The notes under the pieces were generated by a model that was not told the DNA's origin, searched no databases, and was given only the letters and a program-made list of their open reading frames with translations. From assembly GCA_000004985.1 (NCBI GenBank), contig GG738915.1: a DNA stretch of 64,000 nt. One strand, given 5' to 3'. Positions within the stretch are counted from its first letter, which is position 1. Every line of letters begins with the position of its first letter. This document shows, one piece after another, positions 3,881 to 59,265 of the stretch. The DNA is from Naegleria gruberi. Its lineage: Eukaryota. A program made the position numbers and the translations under genes.

Positions 3881-4309
3881 CAATTCTAAAAATAGAATTC
3901 TTCTAAACCCAATGTTCAAACCCTAGCCCAAAATTATAAACTTATTCAAATATCATTAAATTTTATATCATTCGATAGCTAATGATGAGTAGAACAACGT
4001 GTTATATTTAGTTTTTCAATTTATAAAATATTAACTTTGTAAATAATGTCAGATTAAAATTTGTAAAATGAAACTATAGGAAGAATGTTAATTTCAAAAT
4101 CCTTTAATGAGATTATATAGTCTATATCATCATAAACAATATTCATAATCACTTTCATATCAAATTATAAAAGTTCATGTCTGTAGATATAAAAGTATAG
4201 AGTGAAAAGGGAAGATGTGAGGTAAAAGAGGTCAACAATAACTTTTGAGTTTCTCATCAAAACATATTGAATCCTGACATGAAAATGTTCCATTTGGTGA
4301 GTATACATC
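3881..4309. repeat. Subtelomeric unit, copy B (truncated by a 50-N gap at 4310-4359)
   Basis: About 90% identical to 357-790. Confidence 0.75.
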
Positions 4310-4359
4310 NNNNNNNNNNNNNNNNNNNNNNNNNNNNNNNNNNNNNNNNNNNNNNNNNN
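4310..4359. other. Assembly gap (50 N) inside the subtelomeric EGF-repeat gene
   Basis: n run. Confidence 1.
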
Positions 4360-13200: not shown

Positions 13201-16200
13201 GATACTATCACCTGCCTTCAATTTGTAATCAGAATCAAGTTCAATTGAGAATTCAAAGGTTTCCTTGTTAGTCCAGTAACATTTTGGTTTGGTTCCAAGA
13301 AGATCAACACTCTTCAACAACTTGTTACAATCAAGAATCATACTATTGGTATATGTAGAAGAATAAGATGCAGGTGCAACAACCTTAAATTTCAAACCAG
13401 TCAAATCATCCATAAAAAGAACTGGTCCAATAATCTTGGTTGAACACAATTCACCATAAACTCCATCAGCACATGAGGAACAAGATTCACCCTTCCAGAA
13501 ACCCTTCTTGTTATCAGCAAAACAAGTACATTGTTCAAGATCATTACAATAACCATTTCCACTGCAAGTTGTTGTGGCATTACATTTAACCAAACTACTA
13601 CACATAGAACCAATGTATGGAGAAACACATACTGAACAAACTGAACCAGTCCAAAAACCCTTGACAGCTGTACTATCACAAACACAAGTATTAAAGTCTG
13701 TACATTTACCATGTCCAGAACAAACAGATGAAGCATTAGAAGAAATGCCACCACAAGTGAATTGAGCACAATCACTTCCAGAATATCCAGGTTGACAAGA
13801 ACAATGATCGAAAGAATCACATCTACCTTTTCCAGAACAAGCTGATGCAGTTGAGGAAATTCCAAAACAATTAAATTGGCTACAATCATTACCAAAATAT
13901 CCAGCTGAACAGGAGCAATTATTTGGAGAATTACAAGTACCATTACCAGAACAAACAAAGGCATTGCTTGGGGCAATACCAAAACATTTGAAAGAACTGC
14001 AATCTGATCCACTGTATCCACTTGAGCAGGAACAGTTATTTGGGGAGATACAACTACCGTGATTTGTACATACTGATGCACTAGTTGAGGCAGTTCCATA
14101 ACAATCAAATTTTCGACAATCATTTCCGTAGTATCCACTTGAACAGGAGCAGTTATTTGGTGAGATGCAACTACCATGTCTAGAACAAACTGAACCACTT
14201 GTTGAGACAGTTCCATAACAATCATATTGAGTACACTCGTTCCCATAATATCCAACTAAACACGAACAGTTATTTGGTGAGAGACAACTACCATGTCTAG
14301 AACAAACTGAACCACTTGTTGAGGAAGTTCCATAACAATCATATTGAGTACACTCATTTCCATAATAGCCTGATAAGCATGAGCAATTATTTGGGGAGAT
14401 ACAACTTCCGTGATTAGAACATGATGATGTATTTGTGGAGGCAGTTCCATAACAATCAAATTGGCTACAATCACTTCCATAGTATCCAGAGACACATGAA
14501 CAATTATTTGGTGACAAGCAACTACCATGTCCTGAACATGCTGAACTTGTTGATACATTTCCATAACAATCAAATTGACTACAATCATTTCCGTAATAGC
14601 CTGATGAACATGAACAATTATTTGAGGCAACACAACTACCGTGTCCAGAACAAACTGAACCACTCGTGAATATAGTTCCATAACAATCAAATTGGCTACA
14701 ATCATTTCCATAATATCCAACTAAACATGAACAGTTATTTGGGGAGATACAACTCACCATATCTAGAACAAACTGAACCACTTGTTGAGGAAGTTCCATA
14801 ACAATCATATTGAGTACACTCATTTCCATAATAGCCTGATAAGCATGAGCAATTATTTGGGGAGATACAACTTCNNNNNNNNNNNNNNNNNNNNNNNNNN
14901 NNNNNNNNNNNNNNNNNNNNNNNNNNNNNNNNNNNNNNNNNNNNNNNNNNNNNNNNNNNNNNNNNNNNNNNNNNNNNNNTGCCATAACATTGGAAAGAGC
15001 TGCAATCTGATCCACTATATCCAGCTAAGCATGAGCAGTTATTTGGTGAGAGACAGGCACCGTGTCCAGAACATACTGAACCATTTGTTGAGGCAATTCC
15101 AAAACAATCAAATTGACTACAATCATTTCCATAGTGGTCATTAGAGCATGAGCAATTATTTGGTGAGATACAACTTCCTTGACCAGAACAAGCTGATGAA
15201 GAAGTAAATAAGGTACCAAAACATTCATATTGGCTACAGTCACCAAAGTAACCTGAAGCACATGAACAATTATTTGGGGCAATGCAACTACCACGACCAG
15301 AACAAACTGATGAACTTATACCTGGGGCAATTCCATAACATTTGAATAAACTACAATCTTCACCACTGTATCCAGATGAGCAGGAACAACTGTTTGGAGC
15401 AACACAACTTCCATGTCCTGAGCAAACTTTGCGGTCAGTATTCAAATAATCACCACATGTAAAAAGTTGACAGTTTGAACCAGAGTAAGTGGTAGATTCG
15501 CAGTCACAAGTATCAGTTTTTGTACATGTTCCGTGACCTGAGCATACAGTAGAGTTGTCACCTGAAATTCCATTACATGTTGGATATTGACAAGTATTAG
15601 GAGCAACACATGTGGCATATGTTGGACATGCTTCTGGATGTGTGGCCACGATACCATTACACTTTGGAGTTTTACATTCACTACCTCCCCACAAAACACC
15701 ATAATTTGTCAAATCATTTACAGAAGGAAAACCGGTAATTGACTCGGCATTTAACGTAAAGCAATGATCTTAGAAAATTGTTTGTGAACAAAGTTAAAGC
15801 TTAATTACTTACCAGTGGAGGAATAAACAACCAAATGGCCATCGACTTGAAGAACAAATTTAAAAGGTCCAGTATGGGTACCACAATCATTTTTTGGATC
15901 AAGAGTGGTAATCAAAGAAGCACCATCCATAATCTTTAGAGAACCATCATCTTGGCTGAGCACAAGCTTGTAGCCACCATTTTTTGCAGGACCCACTGAT
16001 CTTTGAAAGTTTTTCATGAAAACACCCTCATAAAATTGAGAAAGACTTCCATCATTGTTCAATGTAAGTGCAATTTTTCCATCAGCAGATGTTAATGTGT
16101 TCGTTGCGAGGAGAATTGGCGACTCAGCAGTAAGGGCTGTAGAAGGGGAAATATCAACACAAAGACAATTATCATTTCCGAAGCAAATATTACCGCCACA

Positions 16201-18184: not shown

Positions 18185-18256
18185 GGGGACCAGTGGGAAT
18201 CGAACCCACGGCCTCTCGCACCCAAAGCGAGAATCATACCACTAGACCATGGTCCC
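18185..18256 (-). tRNA. tRNA-Pro (anticodon TGG)
   Basis: Reverse complement GGGACCATGGTCTAGTGGTATGATTCTCGCTTTGGGTGCGAGAGGCCGTGGGTTCGATTCCCACTGGTCCCC. It forms a 7-bp acceptor stem, the anticodon loop TTTGGGT, and a T-arm GTGGGTTCGATTCCCAC. It is near-identical to canonical eukaryotic tRNA-Pro. Confidence 0.85.
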
Positions 18257-34783: not shown

Positions 34784-37069
34784 CTAATTAATGGTATTAC
34801 TTTGAATTGTGTAAGCAATTTTCCAATTTTTAAATTCTCTCGTTGAGGCAAGTCTTAGAAAAGTATCTGATAAATTAGCATAGATTGGGGGATGAATAAT
34901 CTCAACCAATTGTCGAACTTTGGTTTTCTTATTGGAATTATTCGAAATGTTGTCATTTAAGGATTTTTCACATTCGTTCAGTAATTCGTAGAAATTTCTC
35001 CTCACAGTTGATTGAATATTAACTTCGAAAATCGATTGACTTCTCATATATTTACATTCCAAATCTCTCAAATCGTCAATTTCTAAAGATTTATCAATTC
35101 CCTTTTTTGAAATTATTTTTTGTAAATCCATATTTAGCAAGTAGTTTTCAATAGACATTTCTTTAGAAGCATATTCTTTTAGAAGAATTTGAAATTCTGA
35201 ATTTTTCAAATAATTTTCCAATTGATCAAACTGACTAGAATTTGTTTGAATATTAGAATCATTTCCATATTTGGCATTTCTAATAAATTGAATAAACTCG
35301 GAAACTAAAACAGTTCCACCACAAATAAACATGAAACAGACAAACACCAAAAACCTAAAAAATCGACTCATTTCTATAAAAAATTCACTCGTTCCAGATC
35401 CATAAAATATAATTACTAAAATGGTATTCACAATTAAAAATACCAAAAGTAGCAAATCAATTCTAACAAGAAAAGGATCATCAAATAGGAGAAATCTTCT
35501 CAATCCCTTTTCCTTAATAATTTTCCTATTCACAATCATATCAAATACAATAGCTCCAAATCCCAACAAACAACCCAACACACAATACAAGACAATTGTT
35601 GCATTTCCCACAAGTAGATAGGTAAATTCAGCATCGTACAAATCAGTAAAGAAGAATGTCACTCCATGTATCGAAAATATCAAAGCAATCACAAGAGGAA
35701 TTGCCATTGTAAATAACAATCCATATTTCCATTCAGAGAATTTTCTCATTCTATGAATTACCTTATCACTATTCATTCCTTCAGCTTTTGTAATCAAAGT
35801 GTACAAATTTCTCAAATAGTAATAACGTACAACTGTCAAGCTATAGTTCATGACAATGAAACAGACCACAATCATTGAGAAATATCTCAGAAAATAGTAA
35901 CATGCATTATTCATAAAGGTGGAGAAACAAATTTCCAATGGAACGATGAATATTGGAAGGTAGGGAGTGAGTAATCTTCTGGTGAGTGATCGTTTTCTGA
36001 ATGCTTGACTGGCAAATAAGCAGAGAAAGTAACCTATTTCTATGATGGAACATGGAATGAGCCAATAATCTCCATTCGCGAAGGCAAAATCAACACATTG
36101 AGTCGTGACACATTTATGACATGTGGAAGGTAGAAAATTATTCAATAATTCCAGTAGAGTTTCGTTTGAGTTGTTACTATGTGTTGGTATTGAAATATTG
36201 TAAACTTTCAATGTATTCTTTACAATTTCGTCTAAAATCCAATATTGTGGTTTTTGTAAAGTAATTCCACTCACAAAATTAATGAAATTCAAATCAGAAT
36301 TTGACAAATTTCCAAACAGTTTCAATCTGGCCATCACGTTATTCATATCTTTATCTATATATGATGAACAATGTATTGTAAACTCATTGGAATTCGTGGA
36401 ATTGATAGTGGAATAATTATTGAGTGTGAAAAATCCATTCAATTGGTTCAAATTTTGCAAATCACTTAATTGGGTTAATTCTGATTGGGAAATGACGTTC
36501 AAAATTGATGGAACTAGAGGAAGAGGAATAAAATCAGATGGATTAATCAGAACGAAACTATCCGAATCTCTGTATAACCTCAAATAATCATAGAAATATT
36601 GTAATGTAGAAAATAAAACATCGTATTGCAAGAGAACGTTTTTAGGATTTCGACACGCATCTCCTGAAAATGTAAAATAATGAACTTTCAGATTTAAATT
36701 ATGAAACGAAACGAAACTCTGAAACTCTGAATAAAGTCTTTTTTCTACACCAATAGTAAGACGAGAGGATTCTTCCTTCAAAAATTCCACCATTGATTCG
36801 GTAGATTTCACCAGTGAATCGTCCAATTGATTAGTTTGGAATATTTTCCTCCAGACGAAAGCTGTCAAATAATCATTTACACTCACAATTGACTGCGACC
36901 GATCCACATAATAAATAGATTGTTGGGTTAGTGAAATATGTTTAGTAGTATCGAGAATAATTGTTTCCGATAACACGAATTTTGTTATTAAAATTAAAGT
37001 AAACGAAAGCAGAAGAAATAAATGATGAGAATTTCGTATACTTGATGTTGGTGAGTTCGTGACGTGCAT
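34784..37069 (-). CDS. 7TM receptor fused to a C-terminal RGS domain (761 aa): signal peptide, an extracellular domain of about 330 aa, seven predicted TM helices, then an RGS box
   Basis: The RGS box (FQILLKEYASKEMSIENYLLNMDLQKI ... ECKYMRSQSIFEVNIQSTVRRNFYELL ... IYANLSDTFLRLASTREFKNWK) aligns by eye with the RGS4 core (FKAFLKSEYSEENIDFW ... IYNEFIS..A..EVN.D ... IF.LM..DSY.RFLKS). Hydrophobic helices are clear between about residues 340 and 590. Confidence 0.7.
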   Translation of the reverse strand: MHVTNSPTSSIRNSHHLFLLLSFTLILITKFVLSETIILDTTKHISLTQQSIYYVDRSQSIVSVNDYLTAFVWRKIFQTNQLDDSLVKSTESMVEFLKEESSRLTIGVEKRLYSEFQSFVSFHNLNLKVHYFTFSGDACRNPKNVLLQYDVLFSTLQYFYDYLRLYRDSDSFVLINPSDFIPLPLVPSILNVISQSELTQLSDLQNLNQLNGFFTLNNYSTINSTNSNEFTIHCSSYIDKDMNNVMARLKLFGNLSNSDLNFINFVSGITLQKPQYWILDEIVKNTLKVYNISIPTHSNNSNETLLELLNNFLPSTCHKCVTTQCVDFAFANGDYWLIPCSIIEIGYFLCLFASQAFRKRSLTRRLLTPYLPIFIVPLEICFSTFMNNACYYFLRYFSMIVVCFIVMNYSLTVVRYYYLRNLYTLITKAEGMNSDKVIHRMRKFSEWKYGLLFTMAIPLVIALIFSIHGVTFFFTDLYDAEFTYLLVGNATIVLYCVLGCLLGFGAIVFDMIVNRKIIKEKGLRRFLLFDDPFLVRIDLLLLVFLIVNTILVIIFYGSGTSEFFIEMSRFFRFLVFVCFMFICGGTVLVSEFIQFIRNAKYGNDSNIQTNSSQFDQLENYLKNSEFQILLKEYASKEMSIENYLLNMDLQKIISKKGIDKSLEIDDLRDLECKYMRSQSIFEVNIQSTVRRNFYELLNECEKSLNDNISNNSNKKTKVRQLVEIIHPPIYANLSDTFLRLASTREFKNWKIAYTIQSNTIN

Positions 37070-37497
37070 TTTTTTCTGTTGTGAAGTTTGTTATCCAAAT
37101 GTCAGAAATTTAGACAGTTAAGGGCCTTAAAGATTTCCAAATTTTGACAATTACCATTTTTGAAGTTTGTTTTGAAAAAAGAAAAAAACAACAGCAAGAA
37201 AATATATTGAATGCACCAATGTGTGAATATTGAAATAATTTATCATTGGAAAGATGTGAACGGTTTCGAATAAACTTTACAATAATTTTTTTCTATTTTT
37301 TCATTAATTTCTTCAGAAAAATTCAATAGTGTGGTGTTGAAATATTGCAATTGTAAAGAGACCAATGCTATTAATAATAATTTACTTGAATTGTTTAAAA
37401 TCTATTTGAAAATTGTTAAGATTTCGGTAAATGACCAAATATAGAAAATCCATAAAAGAAATTTTCCAAAAATTACAAAAATTTGAATAAAAAAAAT

Positions 37498-40400
37498 ATG
37501 AAAAAATCAAACCAATCCATAGAATTGAGTTTATTCCATCCAAACTCTCTTTCTCATGAGAATCGAGTCCAAATTTCTCATGCACTTCGAAATATTTCTC
37601 CAAATATAGTAATTGGACAAAATGAAGGTGAATTTGATTGTTACACAGATGAAATTCTTCTCTCATCTGAATTACCAGATGTGTTTAGTGTAGATTCCAT
37701 GTTTCTTCCTCATCTAATCGATAGAGGACTCATTCAGCCAATTCAAAAAGATTATTTGAATTCTCTTTGTAATCCTGACGAAATGTTTGAGTTTACAAAA
37801 CAATCCTGTCAATTTAATGGCGACTGGTATGGAATACCAATGTTTGTCCATGGATACATTGTCATGCAACGTGAATTTGATAAGGAAATCAAGTCACTTC
37901 AAGCACTTGCTGAAAAACATGGTTATGACTCAATTGTTTTTCCAGATATGGCAGCTTCTAGCTCCATGTTAATAGTCAGATCGTTTGCTTTGGATCAACA
38001 GGGTGCTACTAATTCCAATAGAATTCAAATCACTAGAGAAAACTTTCCACTTTCAAAGATGGACGAAATTTCACCTTCCTATTTGAAGAATTTCAGAACT
38101 GTGCAAAATGCGACCAAGATTGTGAGTGCACAAGAGTTGGTGGATACATGTAGGTTGGGAGAATGCATTCCACATGCTGCCTACGTTGGAAGATTGGAAA
38201 ATGTTTGTGGACTCAAGTCAAAATTCGAGCAGGGAAATTGGACTTTGACAGTTCTTCCTTTTTTGGAAGGTAAGGCAATGACTACGACTGTTAGTGTGTT
38301 GGTATTCAATGCTAATTTGAAAGGAGAGAGATTGAAACAAGCAATGGAATATCTGAAAGGTTTTTTCACTTTGGAAAAAGTGGACGAAATGTTGGAACAT
38401 GGTTTAATGATACCTTGCGATAAATCCAGATTGAGAAGATGGTCTGAAAAGAGTACCATCTATAGAGATGTTCTCTACTCTCTAGAAAATGTAGAAAAAA
38501 AGATTATTAACATTTCATTACATCCAGATTTGGACAATCGAGAAATTGTCAAAATGTCAAATATTCTCAAACCTCATTTACAACACATTGCTGTAGGTAC
38601 ACTTCGTTGCTTAACTGCAGACATGGTAGAGAAAGCCAAAAGTGGACATCCTGGCATGCCAATCGGAATGTCAACCATCGCTTTCGTATTATGGAAATAT
38701 TTCTACAGAGCTTCAGGTAAAGATCCAACATGGATCAATCGAGATCGATTCATACTCAGTAATGGACATGGTTGTGCACTTCAATATGCATTACTTCATT
38801 TAACAGGATATGAATCCATGCCCATGGAACAGTTACAGAAATTAAGAACTTTGGATTCGAATACTCCTGGTCATCCCGAATGGTTCCATACAGATGGAGT
38901 GGATGCTACGACAGGTCCACTTGGACAGGGTATGTGCAATTCTATTGGAATGGCAGTCGCTGAATGTCACTTGTCCAAGAGATTTAACAGAAATGAGTTG
39001 AAATTATTTGATCATTACACGTATGTCTTTTGTGGAGATGGTGATTTGATGGAAGGCATGTCCACAGAGGGTATGTCATTTGCAGGACATCAACAACTCA
39101 ACAAAGTCATTGTTTTTTATGATGACAATAGAATTACCATAGATGGAAGTACGGATCTAACATTCACTCAGGACACAGCCATGGTTGCAAGAGGATTGGG
39201 TTGGCATGTCATTGAAGTTCATGATGCCGACTCTAACTTGCTAAGAATCAAGGAAGCAATCGAAACAGCTCGTCTTGTAACCAACAAACCATCCATGATT
39301 ATATGCAAGACAACCATTGGTTATGGAACTAAACAGGAAGGAACTGCCAAAGCTCATGGAACAGCATTGGGTGAGGATTCTGTTAGAATGTTGAAGAAAT
39401 TCTGTGGATTTAATCCAGACGATCATTTTATTATTCCTTCCATTGTGAGGGAAGAATTTGAAAAGATTTCTGATAGAAATGCCAAATATTTGCAAGAATG
39501 GAATGATATGACACAAAAATATGCAAATTCACACAAATCTGAATGGGAAATGTTGATGAGAATGAGAAGGGGTGAAATAGAGGACTCTCTCGAGAAGTTT
39601 CTTCCAAAATTTGAAGATGAAAAGTCAATGGCCACTAGAATGTGTTCACACGAAGTGTTAAATGGAATATTCAAGATTATTCCAGCAATGGTTGGAGGAT
39701 CAGCTGATTTAACACCATCCAATTTGACAGATATTGAAGGACAGAAGGATTTTCAACCTCATTCCAGAGAGGGAAGATATTTCAGGTTTGGAGTTAGAGA
39801 ACATGGAATGTGCTCCATTTCGAATGGAATTCTCTATCATGGACTGTTGAGAACCTATGTAGGGACTTTCCTTAATTTTGCTTCGTATGGATTGGGAGCT
39901 ATTCGTTTGAGTGCACTAGCTCAATTGCCAAATATTTTTGTGTTGACACATGACAGTATTGGCTTGGGAGAAGATGGACCAACTCATCAACCTATTGAAG
40001 TATTAACAGCTCTGAGAGCTATTCCTAACATGAATGTGATTAGACCAGCAGATGGTAGAGAAACAAGTGGTGCCTATCTATCAGCCATCAAAACTCTCAA
40101 AACTCCAACATGTCTAGCTCTGTCAAGACAAAACGTTCCACCAATCAAGAATTCCAGTATCGAAAAGACACTCAAAGGAGCCTATATCTTGGAGCAAGAT
40201 GAAAACCCTGATGTTATTTTAGTGGCCACAGGCTCAGAAGTTCAACTCATTGTTGAAGCCAAGAAACAATTGAACGAAAGACAAATTAATGTAAGAACTA
40301 TCAGTATGCCAAGTTGGGAACTCTTTGATGCACAGCCACTGGAATATAGACAGGAAATATTCACAGCTGGCATTCCATGTCTGTCAGTTGAAGCTGCTTC

Positions 40401-40602
40401 TATCATTGGATGGAGTAAATACAGTCATCACCAAATTGGAATGCTTAATTTTGGAGCTAGTGGAAAGTATACAGATGTCTATGAAAAGAATCAGATTACA
40501 ACAAGAAATGTTGTTGAATCTTCTATCAAGTTAATCGATAGATATAAGAAATCAGCTCCAAGTTTAATTCTTGCTCCATTGAAGGAAGAAAAAGCGTTAT
40601 AA
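37498..40602 (+). CDS. Transketolase (residues from about 365 onward) with a contiguous in-frame N-terminal extension of about 350 aa. The extension weakly resembles bacterial periplasmic solute-binding proteins (LPDVFSVDSMFLPHLIDRGLIQPI ... NGDWYGIPMFVHGYIVMQRE).
   Basis: Transketolase motifs: SGHPGMPIGMSTIAFVLW, RDRFILSNGHGCALQYALLHLTGY, TPGHPE, TTGPLGQG, the thiamine-pyrophosphate-binding GDGDLMEG, and the C-terminal domain. The whole 1039-codon ORF is uninterrupted. The ATG is preceded by an A9 tract. Confidence 0.85.
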   Translation: MKKSNQSIELSLFHPNSLSHENRVQISHALRNISPNIVIGQNEGEFDCYTDEILLSSELPDVFSVDSMFLPHLIDRGLIQPIQKDYLNSLCNPDEMFEFTKQSCQFNGDWYGIPMFVHGYIVMQREFDKEIKSLQALAEKHGYDSIVFPDMAASSSMLIVRSFALDQQGATNSNRIQITRENFPLSKMDEISPSYLKNFRTVQNATKIVSAQELVDTCRLGECIPHAAYVGRLENVCGLKSKFEQGNWTLTVLPFLEGKAMTTTVSVLVFNANLKGERLKQAMEYLKGFFTLEKVDEMLEHGLMIPCDKSRLRRWSEKSTIYRDVLYSLENVEKKIINISLHPDLDNREIVKMSNILKPHLQHIAVGTLRCLTADMVEKAKSGHPGMPIGMSTIAFVLWKYFYRASGKDPTWINRDRFILSNGHGCALQYALLHLTGYESMPMEQLQKLRTLDSNTPGHPEWFHTDGVDATTGPLGQGMCNSIGMAVAECHLSKRFNRNELKLFDHYTYVFCGDGDLMEGMSTEGMSFAGHQQLNKVIVFYDDNRITIDGSTDLTFTQDTAMVARGLGWHVIEVHDADSNLLRIKEAIETARLVTNKPSMIICKTTIGYGTKQEGTAKAHGTALGEDSVRMLKKFCGFNPDDHFIIPSIVREEFEKISDRNAKYLQEWNDMTQKYANSHKSEWEMLMRMRRGEIEDSLEKFLPKFEDEKSMATRMCSHEVLNGIFKIIPAMVGGSADLTPSNLTDIEGQKDFQPHSREGRYFRFGVREHGMCSISNGILYHGLLRTYVGTFLNFASYGLGAIRLSALAQLPNIFVLTHDSIGLGEDGPTHQPIEVLTALRAIPNMNVIRPADGRETSGAYLSAIKTLKTPTCLALSRQNVPPIKNSSIEKTLKGAYILEQDENPDVILVATGSEVQLIVEAKKQLNERQINVRTISMPSWELFDAQPLEYRQEIFTAGIPCLSVEAASIIGWSKYSHHQIGMLNFGASGKYTDVYEKNQITTRNVVESSIKLIDRYKKSAPSLILAPLKEEKAL

Positions 40603-40972: not shown

Positions 40973-42400
40973 CTATCTCCTAGTTGAGGCTCTCGATGAT
41001 GACAAGCTCCTCGATGAAATTGGTGCTTGCACACCAAAATGGTCTGCATGAATCCCAGCTTGTGACTTTCGCAATAAAAAGGGATTTTCCATCATTAGAT
41101 TTTCCTTCTCCACTCTTACACTAGCTAAGGAAGCTGCCTTATAAGCATTGGGATAAAATGAATTCTTATTAAATGTGGATGAAGTGGATCCTCTAGGTGT
41201 TGATCCAGTGTGTCGATCGATTCTTTCTTCACCCTCCTTAAATTCATTGTACAATCTTGCCTTTTCAACTAATTTGTCCTCCTTAACAAACAAGGATTCA
41301 ATCACTTGATTTAGGAAGAGGGGACTAACATTGTCTTTAACACTCTTATGTGAAGGGTCAATATCGTCTGGTAGGAAGAGAGGTACAGATTTGATGGCTT
41401 CAAGTTGAGATTTAAGTGACGGGTTGAGAGCAAAGGATTTCTTTCTTGGTAATCTTCCTGGAGCCATTCGTGGTGTTGGCAATGAAGTTGTTGAAGTGTT
41501 TGGCTTCCATCCAGTCGATCCTGTAGAAGATGATGGTGTGGCTATGGCTGTTGATGTAGTTGAAGATGATGAAGGTGGTCGAATTTGTTTGAATGAAACA
41601 GTTGGAGTGCTTGGCCTTCTGCTGTTCTTTGGATCTGCAGATTGCACTCTCCTTGAAATACCTCGAGCACTATTGATTCGAGGAGACTCTGGAGGAGGTT
41701 GATGTTTCAAATAATCGATGGATTGAGTGGACATGTTGTTATTCTTCTTCTGAAGAACAACACTTCCACTCACACTGTTTCTCCTCTTTTTAGGATCCAC
41801 ATCCTGGGATGAAGATGTTGAAAATAATTGAACATGTTCTTTTGGTTTGATGTCGAGTGGCTTTCTAGCACTCTTCTTTGGTGTGAATCTTCTTCCACCA
41901 ATAGATGATGTTGCACTCTGTGCTCTACTTGGAGTGGTTGAGGCCATTAGAAATTCATCACTAAACGATGAGTCGCCATCTTCACTGGTGGGTGAAGTGA
42001 GAGGAACAATGGGAGTGGTAGGAATGGAGACACATCGTTTCGTATTGCTGTGAAAGGTTCCTGAATTGTTGTTGAATTCAATTGGACTCGGTACTGGTTC
42101 AAAGACAAAACTATTATTCACAGAGCTAATAGTTGTAGTATTATTATTCGTAACAATGTATGAAGAATTATGAGAATAAACAGGTGAAGTTCTTCGAGGA
42201 GTTAATTGAGTGAAGAATTGACCTTCCTCTGGTAACTGACCTGTAAATATTCTCGGTGATATTCCAGCAGTTTCGAATGATGCATTCAAATTAACAATTG
42301 CTAAAGTCCTAGATCCTCTCGAGCTATTCAAATCATATTCGAAAATATCTGCAGTATTGTTGTTTCCCTTTTTTAATCCTTTCAATGATAGACTCTTCAT
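40973..42400 (-). CDS. Hypothetical S/T/P/N-rich protein (475 aa)
   Basis: Long ORF, ATG at 42398-42400, no recognised domain. Confidence 0.45.
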   Translation of the reverse strand: MKSLSLKGLKKGNNNTADIFEYDLNSSRGSRTLAIVNLNASFETAGISPRIFTGQLPEEGQFFTQLTPRRTSPVYSHNSSYIVTNNNTTTISSVNNSFVFEPVPSPIEFNNNSGTFHSNTKRCVSIPTTPIVPLTSPTSEDGDSSFSDEFLMASTTPSRAQSATSSIGGRRFTPKKSARKPLDIKPKEHVQLFSTSSSQDVDPKKRRNSVSGSVVLQKKNNNMSTQSIDYLKHQPPPESPRINSARGISRRVQSADPKNSRRPSTPTVSFKQIRPPSSSSTTSTAIATPSSSTGSTGWKPNTSTTSLPTPRMAPGRLPRKKSFALNPSLKSQLEAIKSVPLFLPDDIDPSHKSVKDNVSPLFLNQVIESLFVKEDKLVEKARLYNEFKEGEERIDRHTGSTPRGSTSSTFNKNSFYPNAYKAASLASVRVEKENLMMENPFLLRKSQAGIHADHFGVQAPISSRSLSSSRASTRR

Positions 42401-44744: not shown

Positions 44745-46665
44745 ATGAATAATAATAATAGAAGGCCAACTACATTCAATCCTTGTGTTGCCAATACAAA
44801 TATCAGACGTGCCAATGATGAAAATACTCTCCTGCAACAACAACAATACAACTCGTACAATTCAAAGTATGAACCATTCCAATCGAGAGAAATCCTCAGA
44901 GATGTTACCAATTCAGCCTCTTCGAATCAGAGAAATGTCATGATGCAACAAGGTGTCTGTTCTCAACAACAGCAACCACTCAAACCAAACACTATTGGTC
45001 AAAACAATTACTATAATTCTCAAAACAATATACCTAAAAAACCATCGAGTGCTAATCTTCCACAACAAACTCAACCATACAAGAATGTTGTGCAACAAAC
45101 AAATAGCAATACTACAACAATATATAACTATGGACAACGACCATTGAATGCTCCAAACACTTATCAATACTCCCAACAACAACAGCAACCAATTACTCTC
45201 CAACAACACCATCCCCAATATAATAATTCCTCCTCAAATAGTCGAGGATTTTTACCACAACATTCTTCCNNNNNNNNNNNNNNNNNNNNNNNNNNNNNNN
45301 NNNNNNNNNNNNNNNNNNNGAGATGAGGATGAAGAAATGGCTTACTTTGAAGATGAAGAAGAATTGACAGAAAATAACACAATTCCAATCGTGCCTTCGA
45401 TTGGTGTTGGTTATTCAGTTACTTCAGCTGCTGTTGCTTCTGGTTACATGTCCGCAACATCTGTATTTGCTAATCCAAGCAGTACCAGCTCTGTTTCTCA
45501 AAGCTCTTCCTATTTTTCACAACAACAACAACATTCTTCCAGTAATAATAATTTTGTTGCAGAAGATCCAGCCAATACATCCTATGAAAGTGATGAAGAA
45601 CCACAAAAAGAACCAACCAATTTACTTCCATCCATGCAACCATTGTACTACTTTAGAGAACATCACACCGGCTCTGGTACAATTAATGCATCAACTTGCA
45701 ATATTTTAGTGCCTCCACCAACTAATCCTGAAGATGCTCGTTGTATGAGATCTGTCATCTTTGCTACTGATGTTGAAGCTGAAGTTTTGGAAAGCATGCG
45801 CTTAACTCAAATGAAAAACAAACCAAATCCAAGATATATGGAAACTGTACAAACTGATATTACCAGTAACATGAGATGTATCCTCGTTGATTGGATGAAT
45901 GAGGTTGCTTCCATGTACACTCTTTCACCAGAAACATTATATTTGGCTGTTAATATTCTGGATAGATCCCTCTCCAAGATGTCTGTCAGAAGAAACAAGT
46001 TGCAAGCATTTGGTGTCGCTTCTCTCTTCATCTCTTCAAAGTTTAACGAGATTACTCCTCCAGAGTTAAATGAATTCATCTATATTGCAGATGACACTTA
46101 TGGAAAGGAAGAAGTTCTCATTATTGAGAGAATAATTTTGAACAACCTCGAGTTTGAACTTGTTACTGTTCAACCTTATGATTTTATTGAAAAGTTTTTG
46201 CAAATTTGTGGTGTTGTCGACAATCCTATTGTCAAATACTTGACTTATTACATTTGTGAAATGCAATTACAGAATATTGAAGTTCTTAACTTTCCACCTT
46301 CTGTTATTGCAGCTTCTGCATTGATGATTTCCTTGTATTTGATTGACTTTAATTATTGGAACTCTGAGTTGGCTTGTTGTTTTGGTTTTTCCAATCAAGC
46401 TTGTCAAGGTAACTCATCACTCACTCCAGAAGACGAACAATTGGTTGGTATTGTCAATGAATGTCTTTCCTCCATGTTTAGATTCTATGTTGGTATGGCC
46501 ACAGGCAGGATTAATTTCTCTGCCGTGAGATCCAAGTACTGTCACATGGTTTTCCAAGGAGTTGGTGAATGCACAAGAAAGGTTGATAAGGAACCACCAT
46601 TCATTCCTTCAGTCAGCAAGGGTAGCAATCCAAGTACCTCAACCACACCAAATTACCATCCTTAA
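44745..46665 (+). CDS. Cyclin A/B-type (paralogue 1). The Q/N-rich N-terminus is interrupted by a 50-N gap (45270-45319).
   Basis: Cyclin box MRCILVDWMNEVASMYTLSPETLYLAVNILDRSL...KLQAFGVASLFISSKFNEI plus a C-terminal cyclin fold. An acidic stretch DEDEEMAYFEDEEE precedes it. Confidence 0.8.
45270..45319. other. Assembly gap (50 N) inside the cyclin paralogue 1 N-terminal region
   Basis: n run. Confidence 1.
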
Positions 46666-50804: not shown

Positions 50805-52481
50805 CTAATTGGTCCATTGTAGCAAATCTTGAATGGAAAGTTCAATTAATTGCTCTGGTTGAGAAATGAATGGTGCAATTGCTGGATAGTACTTGGTAAT
50901 GGTTCTAAAATGTTCTCTATTTCTATTATGATTTTTCAAGCTTAATTGTTCGAAACTTTGCATGGAAACTAAACATCTCTTCATGCAATTGTTGAATTCT
51001 TCAATTTCAATGACCAATGAAGATTGTCCTTGTGTTTCATGATCTTCAACATTGTTTCTCTCAATTCTGGACATTTCTTCAAAGTAAATCTTGAGGAATT
51101 TTCTGATAATCGAAACTGATTTGAAATTCGAATGTGGAGCAAGCATTTGGAAAGCCAATACGAAACAGGATAGAGCAACAAGTGAAGGTCTAAACCACAA
51201 CATGTCATAATTGTGTAATTGAATTTCACATAGATAATTAGAAACCTTTTCCATAAAGTTTACAAAATTATCAGCTTCAACCAAAGATGGAAAAGCTTGT
51301 GTGAAATTTTGATCATTCTTCATGGCATGAATGAACAAGGCAACGTAATCAATCAATAGAATGGATCTCAACTCAAAATCCAAGGTATTCAACACCCAAC
51401 TTTCCATTCTCAGCACTTGTTTCTTCAAATCTTCAATAGACGAATCAGACGAAACTGGTGGTAAAATATCACTCAAGTTGACCGATCTACCATAATACTT
51501 GGTTGATATAAAAAAGCATGCACATCCCAATGCCTGCAAATTATCAACATCTATCAAATAATACTGTTCAATATTAAATCTGTCAAGTGAACGATCAAAA
51601 ATCATTGTTGCATGATAGAGAATTTCCTTTGGAATGTCAAGTTCTGTTTGGAGAATATTAAACCAATCGATAACTGTTCTTCTATATTGTGGTTTGACAT
51701 GTGGATGAGTGGAAAGATAATTAGCTTTTGCACAGTTGATAGTTTCACGTGAAATGTTATCTGAAAGTAATTGAAAACTATCTGAAACTTCAACAGCTTC
51801 TTCTTCGTCAGCTTCTTCTTCGTCATCTTCTTGCATGGAATCAACATCTTGATTAGCACATTCTTCTTGATTACTATTCGAATCATGGTCTTGACTCAAA
51901 ATAATTTCTTCAACACTATCTTCCATAGTTTCGTATTGTTGACTTTCTTTTTCTGGATGAATGGAAAATGAGGTAGCGCTCCAACTGCAGGTAATTTCAT
52001 CTTGGGCAAGTGTCGAAATTGGTTCGGCAGTTTCGGTTTCGTTTAAGGAAGGAGATATATACGAATGACCATTGACAAGCTCTTGCTTTACTTCTCGAGA
52101 TTGAAAAGGTGTTGGTTGGATTGTGTTGAGGGCGGTGGTGGAAACGTCTTCTTCACATTCCCAAGTAATTTCTTCTTGTTTTTCATTCACTTTATGGGCG
52201 AGAGCATGTATACGAATTGAATCGAAAGTGGACGAAACTCGAGTCTTCTTTGTAATCTTGCTCTGAAGAGTTTCTACTGAATCAGATTGTGATGAATAGC
52301 TTGTTGTTAGAGAATTTGTCTTTCTCTTTAAATTATTCGAAACTTTTTGGCGCCAACCTTTCATCACGACTTTCTTACCACCAGAACACATTCTCATAAA
52401 TGTACAAGGTGAAAGTCCACCTAATTGTTGTTGATTTCTTCTCGAATTCATTGTATTTAAAATAAAATTACAATTTTCCAT
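50805..52481 (-). CDS. Cyclin-like protein (paralogue 2, divergent), 558 aa, with an acidic DDEEEADEEEAVE stretch before the cyclin box
   Basis: RRTVIDWFNILQTELDIPKEILYHATMIFDRSLDRF...LQALGCACFFISTKYYG plus a second helical repeat. ATG at 52479-52481. Confidence 0.6.
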   Translation of the reverse strand: MENCNFILNTMNSRRNQQQLGGLSPCTFMRMCSGGKKVVMKGWRQKVSNNLKRKTNSLTTSYSSQSDSVETLQSKITKKTRVSSTFDSIRIHALAHKVNEKQEEITWECEEDVSTTALNTIQPTPFQSREVKQELVNGHSYISPSLNETETAEPISTLAQDEITCSWSATSFSIHPEKESQQYETMEDSVEEIILSQDHDSNSNQEECANQDVDSMQEDDEEEADEEEAVEVSDSFQLLSDNISRETINCAKANYLSTHPHVKPQYRRTVIDWFNILQTELDIPKEILYHATMIFDRSLDRFNIEQYYLIDVDNLQALGCACFFISTKYYGRSVNLSDILPPVSSDSSIEDLKKQVLRMESWVLNTLDFELRSILLIDYVALFIHAMKNDQNFTQAFPSLVEADNFVNFMEKVSNYLCEIQLHNYDMLWFRPSLVALSCFVLAFQMLAPHSNFKSVSIIRKFLKIYFEEMSRIERNNVEDHETQGQSSLVIEIEEFNNCMKRCLVSMQSFEQLSLKNHNRNREHFRTITKYYPAIAPFISQPEQLIELSIQDLLQWTN

Positions 52482-53741: not shown

Positions 53742-53812
53742 CAAATGTGCTCGTCTCGTGGTGTAATGGTAGCATAGTGGACTTTGAATCCATTGACGGA
53801 GGTTCGATTCCT
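53742..53812 (+). tRNA. tRNA-Gln (anticodon TTG), copy 1
   Basis: CGTCTCGTGGTGTAATGGTAGCATAGTGGACTTTGAATCCATTGACGGAGGTTCGATTCCTCCCGAGACGG. The GGTGTAATGGT.AGCA D-arm and the CTTTGAA anticodon loop are typical of eukaryotic tRNA-Gln. 7-bp acceptor stem. Confidence 0.85.
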
Positions 53813-53928
53813 CCCGAGACGGTAAACGTGGCGAGCCATAAGAATTTTGCATCGATACTTTTATTTGCTGCTATCAAGGTTTTATGATTACAATTTATTA
53901 TTTGCTCGATTTCCTGTTGCTTATTTAC

Positions 53929-55704: not shown

Positions 55705-55775
55705 TGCGTCGACCGGGAATTGAACCCGGGTCACGGCGATGGCAACGCCGTATTCTACCACTAAACCATCGACGC
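55705..55775 (-). tRNA. tRNA-Gly (anticodon GCC)
   Basis: Reverse complement GCGTCGATGGTTTAGTGGTAGAATACGGCGTTGCCATCGCCGTGACCCGGGTTCAATTCCCGGTCGACGCA. Close to canonical eukaryotic tRNA-Gly-GCC. Confidence 0.85.
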
Positions 55776-55887: not shown

Positions 55888-55958
55888 TCGCCACGTTTAC
55901 CGTCTCGGGAGGAATCGAACCTCCGTCAATGGATTCAAAGTCCACTATGCTACCATTA
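55888..55958 (-). tRNA. tRNA-Gln (anticodon TTG), copy 2, in inverted orientation relative to copy 1
   Basis: The 71 nt are identical to copy 1, as is 8 nt of the 5' flank and about 19 nt of the 3' flank. Confidence 0.85.
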
Positions 55959-56339
55959 CACCACGAGACGAGCACATTAACTGTTCAAAATCTTCGAATA
56001 TCATTGATTTTCAATGATAATCTTAGAAAACCTCCAATGTGCAAAATTTCTTATTAACCACATTTCCAATCAAACTCAAATTATACAACCAATATCGTTT
56101 TGTCCAAATATGCCCCTTCTCTTTTTTTTTACATCTTTCTAAGAAAGCTGCCTTAATAACCTAGAACTGCTTATTTGACCTCCAAATTTGAGCCACTGTA
56201 CATCTTTTACTGTATCGTAAGATAGTTTCCTTATTCGATAAGCTTCACAGGCCGAAATCAATAGACAATAAGCGTTCTTTCTTATTAAAAACAATACAAT
56301 TACTTTTTTTCAAACTGTAGATGAAGGCATTACAACAAT

Positions 56340-57594: not shown

Positions 57595-59265
57595 ATGTTC
57601 AACAATAATTCGAGTGTTTCCACAATGATGACCACAACCACAAGTAGTACTACCTCTACTACTACTACAAGAAAGCCTCCTGTTGGTAAACCAATTCTCT
57701 CCAATACTTCCCTTGCCTATACAAATGTTGAAGAATCTATTGATACGAGGACACCACCTTCTCTTGTATGTAACTCACCTTCTTCAGTGTTTCATCATCA
57801 TGGAGGAGCAAAGAGACAACCACACAGAGAAGCCTTGGCCAATATTACCAATTCTCATGAGGTTCAACATACCTCCTCTACAAATGATTTGAATAAGAGA
57901 GTAGCACAAGCCAATAATTATTCAAATCTGAAAGTGAATACTCATTCTAGTTCTACTTTCACTACATTATCCACTGCTAGTACTAATACTCAATGTTCTA
58001 AGAGTTTTTTGAATCCATACTCCTCTGCCAATGGTAAGACAAACGCAGCAGCAGTAGCAGTATCAGTACACTCAATGATTCATTCGAATAGTGCTAGCAA
58101 TAACACTCAACAATTTAACACTTCGAGCCAACACCATACCCAACAATATACAGAGGATCAACAAACATTCGAGCAACAAGTTGAATCCTCATCATCACCA
58201 CTCAGTTCTGAACAAGATCCAAATGCCTTTAATGAGTTCTCAATGGAGGCCTCTGATGAAAACTACTCTTCTGACGAAGAGATGGATGAATCAGAAGATG
58301 ATGGTGAACAACAAGCACCACCAATCGATCCAGATATCTTCAACTCTGTCGATAAGAACAGGCTTCAAGCTATTATGGATTTGAATATCAGAAATCCAGC
58401 TAACCTCCTTCCAAAAAGTTCTTTGAGAACTTTAACACAAACTCATCTTCCAATCGATGTGGAAGATGATATTCTTTCCTATTTATTCAACAATCAAAGT
58501 TACAAGCAAGTTTCTCCTCACGTTTGGCGAACAACTCAAAAGAATGTCAATGCCAAGATGCGTACCATGCTCGTCGAATGGATTGCAGGTGTTGCTGTAA
58601 GTTTCAAACTCTTACCTGAAACACTCTACCTTTCCATTGACATTTTAGATAGATTCTTGTGTAAAGTTTGTGTTAGCAACGTTAAACTTTTACAAGGATA
58701 TGGTTTGGCTTGTCTTTTCATTGCTGCCAAGTATTGTGAAACTGCTCCACCTCCACTCAGACAATTCTTATTTGCTGCTGATAATACTTATACAAGAGGA
58801 TTGATTTTGAGTTTGGAGAGTGAGATTTGCAATGCTTTAGACTTTGAGTTGTGTTCCATTCAATCCTTTGACTTTGTTGAAAAGTTTTTGGAACTCATTG
58901 GACATGTTAACAATGCCAGAATCAAATGTTTGGCCTATTATATCTGCGAATTGCAACTCCAAAACTTTGATGCCCTACAATACAACAAGAGTGGTATTGC
59001 CCTCTCTTCAGTAATTATTGCCTTGTATGTGACTGGTACTGCCTGTACATTGGAGGGCCTCGTTGCATGCTTGGGTGGTAATACTGATCTTGCCAATATC
59101 ACTTATATCAATAATTGTGTCATGGCTGTATACTGTTATTACGTTCAAATGTCAATGGGTGAAATCCAACACAATTTCATTAAGGACAAGTATGCCAGAC
59201 AATCATTTGGTGGTGTGTCCACCATTGGCTTTACCAGTCGAATTTCTCCAAGTATCAGCTTTTAA
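57595..59265 (+). CDS. Cyclin B/A-type (paralogue 3) with an N-terminal destruction box
   Basis: D-box REALANITN (RxxLxx[IV]xN) at nt 57826-57852. Acidic stretch SDEEMDESEDDGEQQ. Cyclin box MRTMLVEWIAGVAVSFKLLPETLYLSIDILDRFL...LQGYGLACLFIAAKYCE, clearly paralogous to 44745..46665. ATG at 57595. Confidence 0.8.
   Translation: MFNNNSSVSTMMTTTTSSTTSTTTTRKPPVGKPILSNTSLAYTNVEESIDTRTPPSLVCNSPSSVFHHHGGAKRQPHREALANITNSHEVQHTSSTNDLNKRVAQANNYSNLKVNTHSSSTFTTLSTASTNTQCSKSFLNPYSSANGKTNAAAVAVSVHSMIHSNSASNNTQQFNTSSQHHTQQYTEDQQTFEQQVESSSSPLSSEQDPNAFNEFSMEASDENYSSDEEMDESEDDGEQQAPPIDPDIFNSVDKNRLQAIMDLNIRNPANLLPKSSLRTLTQTHLPIDVEDDILSYLFNNQSYKQVSPHVWRTTQKNVNAKMRTMLVEWIAGVAVSFKLLPETLYLSIDILDRFLCKVCVSNVKLLQGYGLACLFIAAKYCETAPPPLRQFLFAADNTYTRGLILSLESEICNALDFELCSIQSFDFVEKFLELIGHVNNARIKCLAYYICELQLQNFDALQYNKSGIALSSVIIALYVTGTACTLEGLVACLGGNTDLANITYINNCVMAVYCYYVQMSMGEIQHNFIKDKYARQSFGGVSTIGFTSRISPSISF

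What the first reader, a model, noticed from the sequence alone, without database searches (positions are those of the whole stretch)
37498..40602. Transketolase with an in-frame N-terminal extension of about 350 aa that resembles a periplasmic solute-binding fold
Canonical transketolases begin about 30 aa before the SGHPG motif. Here 365 codons precede it with no stop, in one ORF, and the ATG follows a typical A-tract. The extension carries two short patterns that recur in bacterial ABC-transporter substrate-binding proteins: D-V-F-x-x-D-x-x-[FW]-x-x-x-L-x-x-x-G-L-[IL]-x-P, and N-G-x-x-Y-G-[IV]-P. A ligand-binding domain fused to a thiamine-dependent enzyme would be an unusual architecture, and could represent substrate or cofactor sensing, or a horizontally acquired module.
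Basis: inference. Interest (0 to 1): 0.65.

Follow-up and report, generated by a model that had tools for sequence, protein, structure and literature searches.

The report
Transketolase fused to dead thiaminase domain
This Naegleria gruberi gene really does encode a transketolase with an extra 364-residue N-terminal domain, but that domain is a copy of the amoeba's known vitamin-B1-cleaving enzyme (thiaminase I) that has lost its catalytic cysteine. The fusion type already exists in public data, and this copy is truncated in the public annotation.

Summary
One 1034-codon ORF (37498-40602, +) encodes a 364-aa N-terminal domain joined almost without a linker to a complete transketolase whose catalytic motifs are all intact. 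The window is Naegleria gruberi. The public model of this gene (XP_002670418, 682 aa) starts at internal Met353 and omits the N-domain.

Full-length orthologues exist in N. fowleri and N. lovaniensis. All fused transketolases form one clade, which points to a single fusion followed by duplication.

What is new is the state of the active site in this paralogue. The thiaminase nucleophile Cys is His118 here and Gln in the orthologues. The conserved Tyr-x-Asp is also lost. The equivalents of Tyr50, Asp64 and Glu241 are kept. The domain is under purifying selection (dN/dS 0.11).

Most likely it is a non-cleaving, possibly thiamin/pyrimidine-binding, pseudo-thiaminase module on an active transketolase. 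Ligand binding is inferred, not shown. Interest is moderate.

The parts
37498..40602 (+). Complete single-exon CDS, 1034 aa plus TAA. It encodes a thiaminase-I-like domain fused to transketolase. This is N. gruberi gene NAEGRDRAFT_60965, and the ORF is 352 codons longer at the 5' end than the public 682-aa model.
37070..37497 (.). A 428-bp AT-rich intergenic region shared with the divergent upstream ORF (34784-37069, minus strand). It holds the in-frame TAA at 37453-37455, which bounds the ORF upstream, and the A-tract before the ATG.
37498..38589 (+). N-terminal domain, aa 1-364: a thiaminase I homologue with a periplasmic-binding-protein type II-like fold. The first beta-strand starts at aa 8, which leaves no room for a targeting peptide.
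37678..37740 (+). It contains Asp66, the equivalent of B. thiaminolyticus Asp64, which is invariant in all 8 fusion proteins.
37816..37839 (+). This is the conserved Y-G-x-P strand that leads into the catalytic-cysteine position.
37849..37851 (+). His118. It occupies the column of the thiaminase I nucleophile (Cys113 of 2THI; the Cys in 'YLCSNF' of 4HCW; Ser143 of the C143S 4KYS structure). The cysteine is absent.
38197..38199 (+). Glu234, in 'GRLEN'. It is the equivalent of the thiaminase I general-base glutamate (Glu241 of 2THI, 'GYSES') and is retained. The neighbouring Tyr239 equivalent is Arg232.
38293..38295 (+). Ser266, in 'TVSV'. It replaces the conserved Tyr-x-Asp ('YSD' Tyr270/Asp272 in 2THI; 'YTD' in 4HCW). 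Gly276 (38323-38325) replaces Asp272 of the 4HCW protein numbering.
38554..38556 (+). Met353, the start codon of the public 682-aa gene model. It lies inside the last helix (aa 347-361) of the thiaminase-like domain and is not conserved in orthologues or paralogues.
38590..40599 (+). Transketolase, aa 365-1034: the ThDP-binding (PP), pyrimidine-binding (Pyr) and C-terminal domains. It carries SGHPG (382-386), GDGDLMEG (513-520), YDDNRITIDG (541-550) and THDSIGLGEDGPTHQP (817-832). All catalytic and cofactor residues checked are present.

Best explanation
This is one N. gruberi gene that encodes a bifunctional-looking polypeptide.

**The two halves.** The C-terminal 670 aa are a catalytically competent, ThDP-dependent transketolase. 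The N-terminal 364 aa are a paralogue of the Naegleria thiaminase I domain. That domain keeps the two-lobed binding-protein fold and several cleft residues (the equivalents of Tyr50, Asp64 and Glu241). It has lost the nucleophilic cysteine and the conserved Tyr-x-Asp.

**History.** A thiaminase I module was fused once to a transketolase in an ancestor of these heterolobosean amoebae. The fusion then duplicated before N. gruberi and N. fowleri diverged. Copy A is the crystallised enzyme (D2V4Z5) and kept the thiaminase active site. Copy B is this gene and became a pseudo-thiaminase.

**What is shown and what is inferred.**
- Shown: the ORF, the homology, the fold, the missing residues, purifying selection on the domain, and the monophyly of the fusions.
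- Inferred: the domain no longer cleaves thiamin. Instead it acts as a non-catalytic module, most plausibly one that still binds a thiamin or pyrimidine-type ligand, as the engineered C143S bacterial thiaminase does. It may also or instead serve a structural or regulatory role for the attached ThDP enzyme.
For: **Single ORF.**
- It is one open frame that chance does not explain.
- The orthologues are single uninterrupted ORFs, collinear from aa 5 to the C-terminus, in N. fowleri (1067 aa) and N. lovaniensis (1039 aa).

**N-domain identity.**
- The AF2 model has pLDDT 83 and pTM 0.85.

**The architecture is already public.**
- 4HCW is identical to aa 1-356 of the 1025-aa 'transketolase' P0006/D2V4Z5.

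**Loss of catalytic residues.**
- The catalytic Cys column holds His here, Gln in both orthologues and Cys in all clade-A copies. Three independent phmmer alignments and a MAFFT alignment agree.
- The conserved 'YTD' is 'TVS' here.
- Cys and Glu are required for thiaminase I activity: a C148A/E269A mutant is dead (PMC10499793).
- A C143S enzyme was crystallised with intact thiamin bound (titles seen).

**Retained residues and selection.**
- Tyr49 and Asp66 are invariant in all 8 fusion proteins.
- dN/dS between N. fowleri and N. lovaniensis is 0.107 for the N-domain and 0.070 for the transketolase part.

**Transketolase part.**
- It matches solved transketolases at E=1e-199, and all motifs and catalytic His/Arg/Asp/Glu residues are present and invariant.

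**Phylogeny.**
- In an NJ tree of the transketolase domain, the fused proteins are monophyletic (100%), and clades A+B exclude clade C (100%).
Against: - No transcript or protein data were available. The public gene model starts at Met353, which could in principle reflect a shorter product.
- Ligand binding by the Cys-less domain is untested. Several aromatic cleft residues of bacterial thiaminase (equivalents of Tyr18, Tyr222, Tyr239 and Tyr270) are also replaced, so the pocket may no longer fit thiamin at all.
- Retention of the Glu241 equivalent, plus four clade-B-specific conserved cysteines (Cys219, Cys223, Cys237, Cys307), leaves a small chance of a relocated nucleophile.
- Residue roles for the bacterial enzyme, and the identity of 'Asp272' in the Naegleria enzyme, rest partly on my memory of papers that were not held in the library.
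Confidence: 0.6

Rival explanations
1. The N-domain is still an active thiaminase I (or a related transferase). It would use a different nucleophile, such as His118 or one of the clade-B-specific cysteines. The protein would then be a true bifunctional thiaminase/transketolase like its paralogue.
For: The equivalent of the general-base Glu is retained in all three clade-B proteins. Cysteines at 219, 223, 237 and 307 are conserved within clade B. The domain is under strong purifying selection.
Against: His118 is not conserved; it is Gln in both orthologues. The clade-B cysteines replace small or hydrophobic residues (Val, Pro, Ala) of the other clades, which is what buried conservative substitutions look like. 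The conserved Tyr-x-Asp is lost as well. Scores against the thiaminase models drop from 260 to 49 bits (PF22156) and from 80 to 29 bits (TIGR04541) relative to the genuine enzyme. Mutating the Cys/Glu pair abolishes activity in a characterised thiaminase I (PMC10499793).
Confidence: 0.12
2. The N-domain has lost all thiamin-related function. It persists as a structural, oligomerisation or localisation module, or it binds an unrelated ligand.
For: Many cleft residues are replaced (the Cys, three or four Tyr, one Asp). Clade B evolves faster than clade A in both domains: N-domain identity between N. gruberi and N. fowleri is 46% against 56%, and transketolase identity is 68% against 81%. Purifying selection fits any function.
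Against: The equivalents of Tyr50, Asp64 and Glu241 stay conserved across clade B. That is hard to explain if the cleft were irrelevant. The fusion partner is itself a thiamin-cofactor enzyme, in three independent lineages of the fusion.
Confidence: 0.2
3. The public annotation is right. The transketolase is made from Met353, and the upstream 352 codons are a separate product or an untranslated relic merged into one ORF by chance.
For: The public model XP_002670418 begins at Met353 and has a canonical transketolase length of 682 aa.
Against: - The chance of the open frame is about 7e-13.
- Met353 lies inside the last helix of the thiaminase fold and is Ile or Val in the orthologues.
- There is no linker or intergenic space. 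The domain ends at aa 361 and the transketolase match starts at aa 365.
- The orthologues and paralogues are annotated full-length.
- dN/dS of 0.107 shows the upstream part is a constrained coding sequence.
- The two halves have the same codon usage.
Confidence: 0.05
4. The extension is a bacterial ABC-transporter substrate-binding protein acquired as a transport or sensing module.
Confidence: 0.03

Closest known systems
Naegleria gruberi thiaminase I (PDB 4HCW/4HCY), the N-terminal 356 aa of the 1025-aa protein D2V4Z5 / XP_002680761 annotated 'transketolase'
   Different: The known protein keeps the nucleophilic Cys ('YLCSNF'), 'GYSES' and 'YTD'. The window protein has His118, 'GRLEN' and 'TVS'. 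The window gene belongs to a separate paralogous clade that has its own orthologues in N. fowleri and N. lovaniensis. It is truncated in the public annotation.
Bacterial thiaminase I / thiamine pyridinylase BcmE (B. thiaminolyticus 2THI; C. botulinum 4KYS; TIGR04541)
   Different: The bacterial enzymes are secreted, stand-alone proteins of about 380 aa with the catalytic Cys. The window domain is intracellular-type (no signal peptide), fused to transketolase, lacks the Cys, and scores only 29 bits against the equivalog cut-off of 175.
Engineered C143S C. botulinum thiaminase I with bound thiamin (PDB 4KYS)
   Same: It is a thiaminase I fold without the nucleophilic Cys that still holds thiamin in the cleft. 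His118 of the window protein aligns with Ser143 (titles).
   Different: It is a laboratory point mutant with an otherwise intact pocket. The window domain carries several further natural substitutions in the cleft, so binding cannot be assumed.
Periplasmic thiamin-binding protein TbpA/ThiB (reported to be structurally related to thiaminase I; recalled from the literature, not tested here)
   Same: It is a natural precedent for a non-catalytic thiamin/ThDP-binding protein built on the thiaminase I / binding-protein fold.
Canonical transketolase (yeast TKL1 1TRK; Scheffersomyces stipitis 5HJE)
   Same: aa 365-1034 align end to end (E=1e-199 to 2e-192). The ThDP motif and all catalytic residues are conserved.
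   Different: Canonical enzymes start about 10 residues before the aligned region and have no N-terminal domain.

Membership tests
Thiaminase I (EC 2.5.1.2; PF22156 / TIGR04541) | Significant sequence homology to a biochemically characterised thiaminase I across the whole domain | tested here: met
   phmmer against 4HCW gives E=1.1e-40, aa 13-361 against 16-357. PF22156 scores 47-49 bits against a cut-off of 27.
Thiaminase I (EC 2.5.1.2; PF22156 / TIGR04541) | Two-lobed alpha/beta fold of the periplasmic-binding-protein type II class, with a cleft | tested here: met
Thiaminase I (EC 2.5.1.2; PF22156 / TIGR04541) | Nucleophilic active-site cysteine (Cys113 in 2THI; Cys143 in C. botulinum) | tested here: not met
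   The column holds His118 in the window protein and Gln in the N. fowleri and N. lovaniensis orthologues. It holds Cys in clade A and in the bacterial homologue P0124.
Thiaminase I (EC 2.5.1.2; PF22156 / TIGR04541) | Glutamate that activates the cysteine (Glu241 in 2THI) | tested here: met
   Glu234 in 'GRLEN' aligns with the E of 'GYSES'.
Thiaminase I (EC 2.5.1.2; PF22156 / TIGR04541) | Conserved Tyr-x-Asp of the cleft (Tyr270/Asp272 in 2THI; 'YTD' in 4HCW) | tested here: not met
   It reads 'TVS' (Ser266) in the window protein and in both orthologues.
Thiaminase I (EC 2.5.1.2; PF22156 / TIGR04541) | NCBIfam equivalog score of at least 175 bits | tested here: not met
   The window domain scores 29 bits. 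The genuine N. gruberi enzyme also fails, at 80 bits, so this cut-off is only informative for bacteria.
Thiaminase I (EC 2.5.1.2; PF22156 / TIGR04541) | Thiamin cleavage with a nucleophilic co-substrate | not testable with these tools
   Needs an enzyme assay.
Transketolase (EC 2.2.1.1) | Three-domain architecture (PP, Pyr, C-terminal) | tested here: met
   PF00456 at 427 bits, PF02779 at 170 bits and PF22613 at 114 bits. End-to-end match to solved transketolases at E=1e-199.
Transketolase (EC 2.2.1.1) | ThDP/metal motif GDG-X(25-30)-N, plus the catalytic and substrate residues (yeast His30, His69, His103, Asp157, Asn187, His263, Arg359, Ser386, Glu418, His469, Asp477, His481, Arg528; numbering from the literature) | tested here: met
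   The window protein has H384, H424, H459, D514, N544, H620, R714, S741, E768, H818, D826, H830 and R877. All are present and invariant in the 8 fusion proteins. The offsets (349-357) agree with the 1TRK alignment.
Naegleria-type thiaminase I-transketolase fusion (D2V4Z5 type) | Thiaminase I-family domain and transketolase in one uninterrupted ORF with an essentially linker-less junction | tested here: met
   The same junction, '...LKPxLQHIAV(A/G)TLRC...', appears in all members.
Naegleria-type thiaminase I-transketolase fusion (D2V4Z5 type) | Common descent with the characterised fusion | tested here: met
   In an NJ tree of the transketolase domain, all fused proteins are monophyletic with 100% bootstrap.
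Bacterial ABC-transporter substrate-binding protein | Pfam SBP family score above threshold | tested here: not met
   SBP_bac_8 scores 17.2 against 27. SBP_bac_6 scores 12.6-14.9 against 24.6.
Bacterial ABC-transporter substrate-binding protein | Signal peptide or lipobox, and neighbouring permease/ATPase genes | tested here: not met
   The N-terminus runs straight into strand 1 (aa 8-11). The neighbours are ordinary eukaryotic genes such as dynamin, cyclins and GSAP.

The most novel reading that the evidence does not exclude
The Cys-less thiaminase-derived domain would be a built-in vitamin-B1 (thiamin, ThDP or HMP-pyrimidine) receptor on a ThDP-dependent enzyme. It would capture, retain, proof-read or sense the cofactor or its analogues for the attached transketolase. 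That would be a natural case of a vitamin-degrading enzyme converted into a vitamin-binding regulatory domain. It would have evolved side by side with a still-active thiaminase-transketolase paralogue, and independently in a second lineage (clade C, where Cys is replaced by Ala or Ser).
Probability: 0.3. Interest if true: 0.65.

Novelty: new variant of a known kind. Interest (0 to 1): 0.42.

Why it matters
Thiaminase I is an enigmatic enzyme, and its physiological role is still debated.

In Naegleria, both transketolase hits found here carry a thiaminase I-type domain. One keeps the active-site residues and one does not. This gives a natural active/inactive pair for asking why a thiamin-destroying fold is welded to a thiamin-dependent enzyme.

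On the practical side, the N. gruberi reference protein for this gene (D2VZK8 / XP_002670418) lacks one third of the polypeptide and should be corrected. N. fowleri, the pathogenic relative, carries both fusion paralogues. These architectures are absent from the other transketolases retrieved in these searches.

Tried and rejected
**Searches that gave little or nothing**
- A word-indexed protein search with the N-domain alone found nothing.
- A profile of 8 N-domains returned only one 269-aa fragment.
- The exhaustive phmmer search found only 5 hits at E<=1e-3. This shows how rare and divergent the domain is, but it added few sequences.
A scan with the single protein found no relative.

**Synteny**
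- Synteny with N. fowleri was tested, and only the gene itself is conserved; the flanking ORFs gave no tblastn or tblastx match.
- The public 682-aa protein could not be located by exact look-up.

**Structure**
- The full-length AF2 model was poor (pLDDT 56, pTM 0.46, 8-sequence alignment). It says nothing about inter-domain packing.
- The afdb50 fold library was unavailable.
- Model coordinates are not exposed, so I could not check whether the clade-B cysteines face the cleft.

**Literature**
- The key papers (Kreinbring 2014, PMC3890816; Sikowitz 2013, PMC3883099) are not held.
- No paper in the searchable library mentions a thiaminase-transketolase fusion or this locus tag.

**Ideas considered and dropped**
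- No TPP riboswitch or other Rfam family lies near the gene.
- A peroxisomal or other targeting signal was considered and rejected. The N-terminus starts directly with the fold, and the C-terminus (-KAL) is not a canonical PTS1. This comes from reading the sequence only.
Full report
**1. What is in the sequence**

The window is nuclear DNA of Naegleria gruberi. The C-terminal 682 aa of the ORF are 100% identical to 'predicted protein [Naegleria gruberi]' (XP_002670418 / EFC37674 / UniProt D2VZK8, NAEGRDRAFT_60965). The window starts with a (CCCAAA)n telomere array.

The ORF runs from the ATG at 37498 to the TAA at 40600-40602, which is 1034 aa. The ATG follows 'aataaaaaaaat', and an in-frame TAA lies at 37453.

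SGHPG is at aa 382-386, so 381 codons precede it rather than 365. Residue 365 is where the Pfam Transketolase_N match begins.

The N-terminal 364 codons are open with a chance probability of about 7e-13. The other five frames have 17-29 stops. GC3 (0.297 against 0.301) and codon usage match the transketolase half.

**2. What the extension is**

- Pfam places aa 130-250 in PF22156 'Thiaminase_I-like_N' (47-49 bits, cut-off 27). NCBIfam gives a weak hit to thiamine pyridinylase BcmE.
- Against PDB sequences, aa 13-361 match the whole 357-residue chain of 4HCW, 'thiaminase-I' of N. gruberi, at E=1.1e-40. Bacterial thiaminases I (4KYS, 2THI) follow at 1e-5 to 1e-6.

The family, however, is thiaminase I.

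**3. The architecture is not new**

The 4HCW chain is identical to residues 1-356 of P0006, a 1025-aa N. gruberi protein annotated 'transketolase' (D2V4Z5 / XP_002680761). The two sit in the same 90% cluster. The only characterised eukaryotic thiaminase I is therefore itself the N-terminal domain of a thiaminase-transketolase fusion. The crystallised construct was cut exactly at the junction.

Full-length relatives of the window protein are:
- N. fowleri, 1067 aa, and N. lovaniensis, 1039 aa. Both are 59% identical with 99-100% coverage and carry PF22156 plus the transketolase domains.
- A second set that groups with D2V4Z5 (P0004 from N. fowleri, P0005).
- A third set from unidentified eukaryotic contigs (P0007, P0123).

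The exact 1034-aa product of this window is absent from the 15-billion-protein collection. Only the 682-aa model, starting at Met353, is public.

**4. One gene, not two**

- The N. fowleri and N. lovaniensis genes are single uninterrupted ORFs. They are collinear with window 37510-40590.
- The thiaminase fold ends at aa 361 (helix 347-361). The transketolase match begins at aa 365.
- Met353 lies inside that last helix. It is Ile or Val in the orthologues and Cys, Ser, Lys or Thr in the paralogues. No internal start is conserved.
- The N-termini of the orthologues align from residue about 5, and strand 1 begins at aa 8. The ATG at 37498 is therefore the conserved start, with no room for a targeting peptide.
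- Transcript evidence could not be obtained with these tools.

**5. Active-site state**

In 2THI numbering, the alignments place Cys113 in 'QILCTN', Tyr239/Glu241 in 'GYSES', and Tyr270/Asp272 in 'FYSDV'. The cysteine, activated by the glutamate, is essential: a C148A/E269A mutant is inactive (PMC10499793).

| Position (2THI numbering) | Window protein | Notes |
|---|---|---|
| Cys113 (nucleophile) | His118 | Gln in both orthologues. Cys in all clade-A proteins and in the bacterial homologue P0124. His118 aligns with Ser143 of the C143S structure 4KYS. |
| Tyr239 | Arg232 | |
| Glu241 | Glu234 | Retained |
| Tyr270-x-Asp272 | Thr-Val-Ser266 | |
| Asp272 of the 4HCW protein numbering ('LCDEK') | Gly276 | |
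| Tyr50 and Asp64 | Tyr49 and Asp66 | Invariant in all eight fusion proteins |

I recall from the abstract of Kreinbring et al. that 'Asp272' is the proposed base in the Naegleria enzyme. I could not verify which aspartate this is because the paper is not held. Both candidate aspartates are lost here, so the conclusion does not depend on it.

Compared with the genuine enzyme, scores fall from 260 to 49 bits on PF22156 and from 80 to 29 bits on TIGR04541.

**6. Is the degenerate domain still functional?**

dN/dS between the N. fowleri and N. lovaniensis orthologues is 0.107 for the N-domain (dS 0.79) and 0.070 for the transketolase part. The domain is under strong purifying selection and is not a decaying relic.

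Clade B evolves faster than clade A in both halves. Between N. gruberi and N. fowleri, N-domain identity is 46% (B) against 56% (A), and transketolase identity is 68% against 81%. The N-domain is not disproportionately relaxed.

**7. The transketolase half**

It aligns end to end with solved transketolases (E=1e-199 to S. stipitis, 2e-192 to yeast TKL1). It has GDGDLMEG...YDDNRITIDG. It also has the residues corresponding to yeast His30, His69, His103, Asp157, Asn187, His263, Arg359, Ser386, Glu418, His469, Asp477, His481 and Arg528 (yeast numbering from the literature). All are invariant among the fusions. It is predicted to be active.

**8. History**

An NJ tree of the transketolase domains (638 ungapped columns, 100 bootstraps) makes all fused proteins monophyletic (100%). 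Clade C branches outside (A+B) (100%). Both A and B contain N. gruberi and N. fowleri members.

This implies one fusion event, followed by a duplication before the Naegleria species diverged. By parsimony, the cysteine was then lost independently in clade B (His/Gln) and in clade C (Ala/Ser).

Outside these amoebae, the only relatives of the N-domain at E<=1e-3 among 1.84 billion representatives are three bacterial-type proteins. That fits a bacterial origin of the module but does not prove it.

**9. Mechanism proposed**

The protein is an active transketolase carrying a thiaminase-I-derived pseudo-enzyme domain.

A thiaminase I that lacks only the cysteine (C143S) was crystallised with intact thiamin in the cleft (entry and paper titles). 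Tyr49, Asp66 and Glu234 are also conserved. The most economical reading is therefore a non-cleaving domain that still binds a thiamin or pyrimidine-type ligand and serves the attached ThDP enzyme, through capture, retention, discrimination of analogues, or regulation.

This last step is inference. Several aromatic cleft residues are also replaced, so a purely structural role or a new ligand is a serious rival. A residual activity with a relocated nucleophile is less likely.

**10. Context**

The neighbours are unrelated eukaryotic genes: GSAP, an alpha/beta hydrolase, dynamin, cyclins and an enolase-superfamily protein. There are no thiamin genes, no transporter components and no TPP riboswitch.

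**11. Verdict**

Two things are new: the correction of the N. gruberi gene model, and the recognition that this paralogue carries a conserved, catalytically degenerate thiaminase domain. I rate it a new variant of a known kind, of moderate interest.

Noticed in passing
window 3-356 and 3512-3883 (run of N from about 948 to about 3500 between them): There are two arrays of the hexamer CCCAAA (TTTGGG on the other strand), about 59 and 62 copies at 98-99% match. One sits at the very start of the window and the other just after an assembly gap. This is a chromosome or scaffold end with a telomere repeat. The second, interior array may be a scaffolding artefact or an interstitial telomere block.
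   Followed up: partly
window 13850-14872 and 5499-5824: 117-bp (39-aa) tandem repeats lie inside two large minus-strand ORFs (10276-15015, 1579 aa; 4232-6139, 635 aa). These ORFs encode EGF-like / teneurin-type EGF repeats, and the larger one also has a REJ domain. They look like subtelomeric repeat-rich surface-protein genes.
   Followed up: partly
window 45148-46665 (+), 50805-52481 (-), 57595-59265 (+): Three separate cyclin genes (Cyclin_N plus Cyclin_C) lie within 14 kb.
   Followed up: no
window 53751-53823 (+), 55705-55775 (-), 55899-55971 (-), 18185-18256 (-): Two tRNA-Gln(TTG) genes with identical Rfam scores lie in opposite orientation about 2 kb apart, with a tRNA-Gly(GCC) next to one of them. 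There is also a lone tRNA-Pro(TGG).
   Followed up: no
L004 4382-7576 (P0007, Logan SRR25336392) and P0123/P0125 (JGI metagenome): A third clade of thiaminase-like/transketolase fusions comes from unidentified eukaryotic contigs. The catalytic Cys is Ala or Ser and the Glu is Gln, but the Tyr/Phe-x-Asp is kept. This looks like an independent degeneration of the thiaminase site. Pfam's precomputed hits do not even flag the N-domain in P0007.
   Followed up: partly
window 34784-37069 (-) and 40973-42400 (-): The two immediate neighbours (761 aa, hydrophobic and multi-pass-looking; 475 aa, Ser/Thr/Pro-rich) have no Pfam family at E<=1e-3. They have no detectable counterpart next to the N. fowleri orthologue, so local synteny is not conserved.
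   Followed up: partly
P0128 (ENA, 1044 aa): An alternative assembly or annotation of the paralogue D2V4Z5 carries 19 extra N-terminal residues (MKKHQCIKNIITIEKNIAT-) ahead of the Met used in the crystallised construct. Start-codon calls for these Naegleria fusion genes vary between sources.
   Followed up: no
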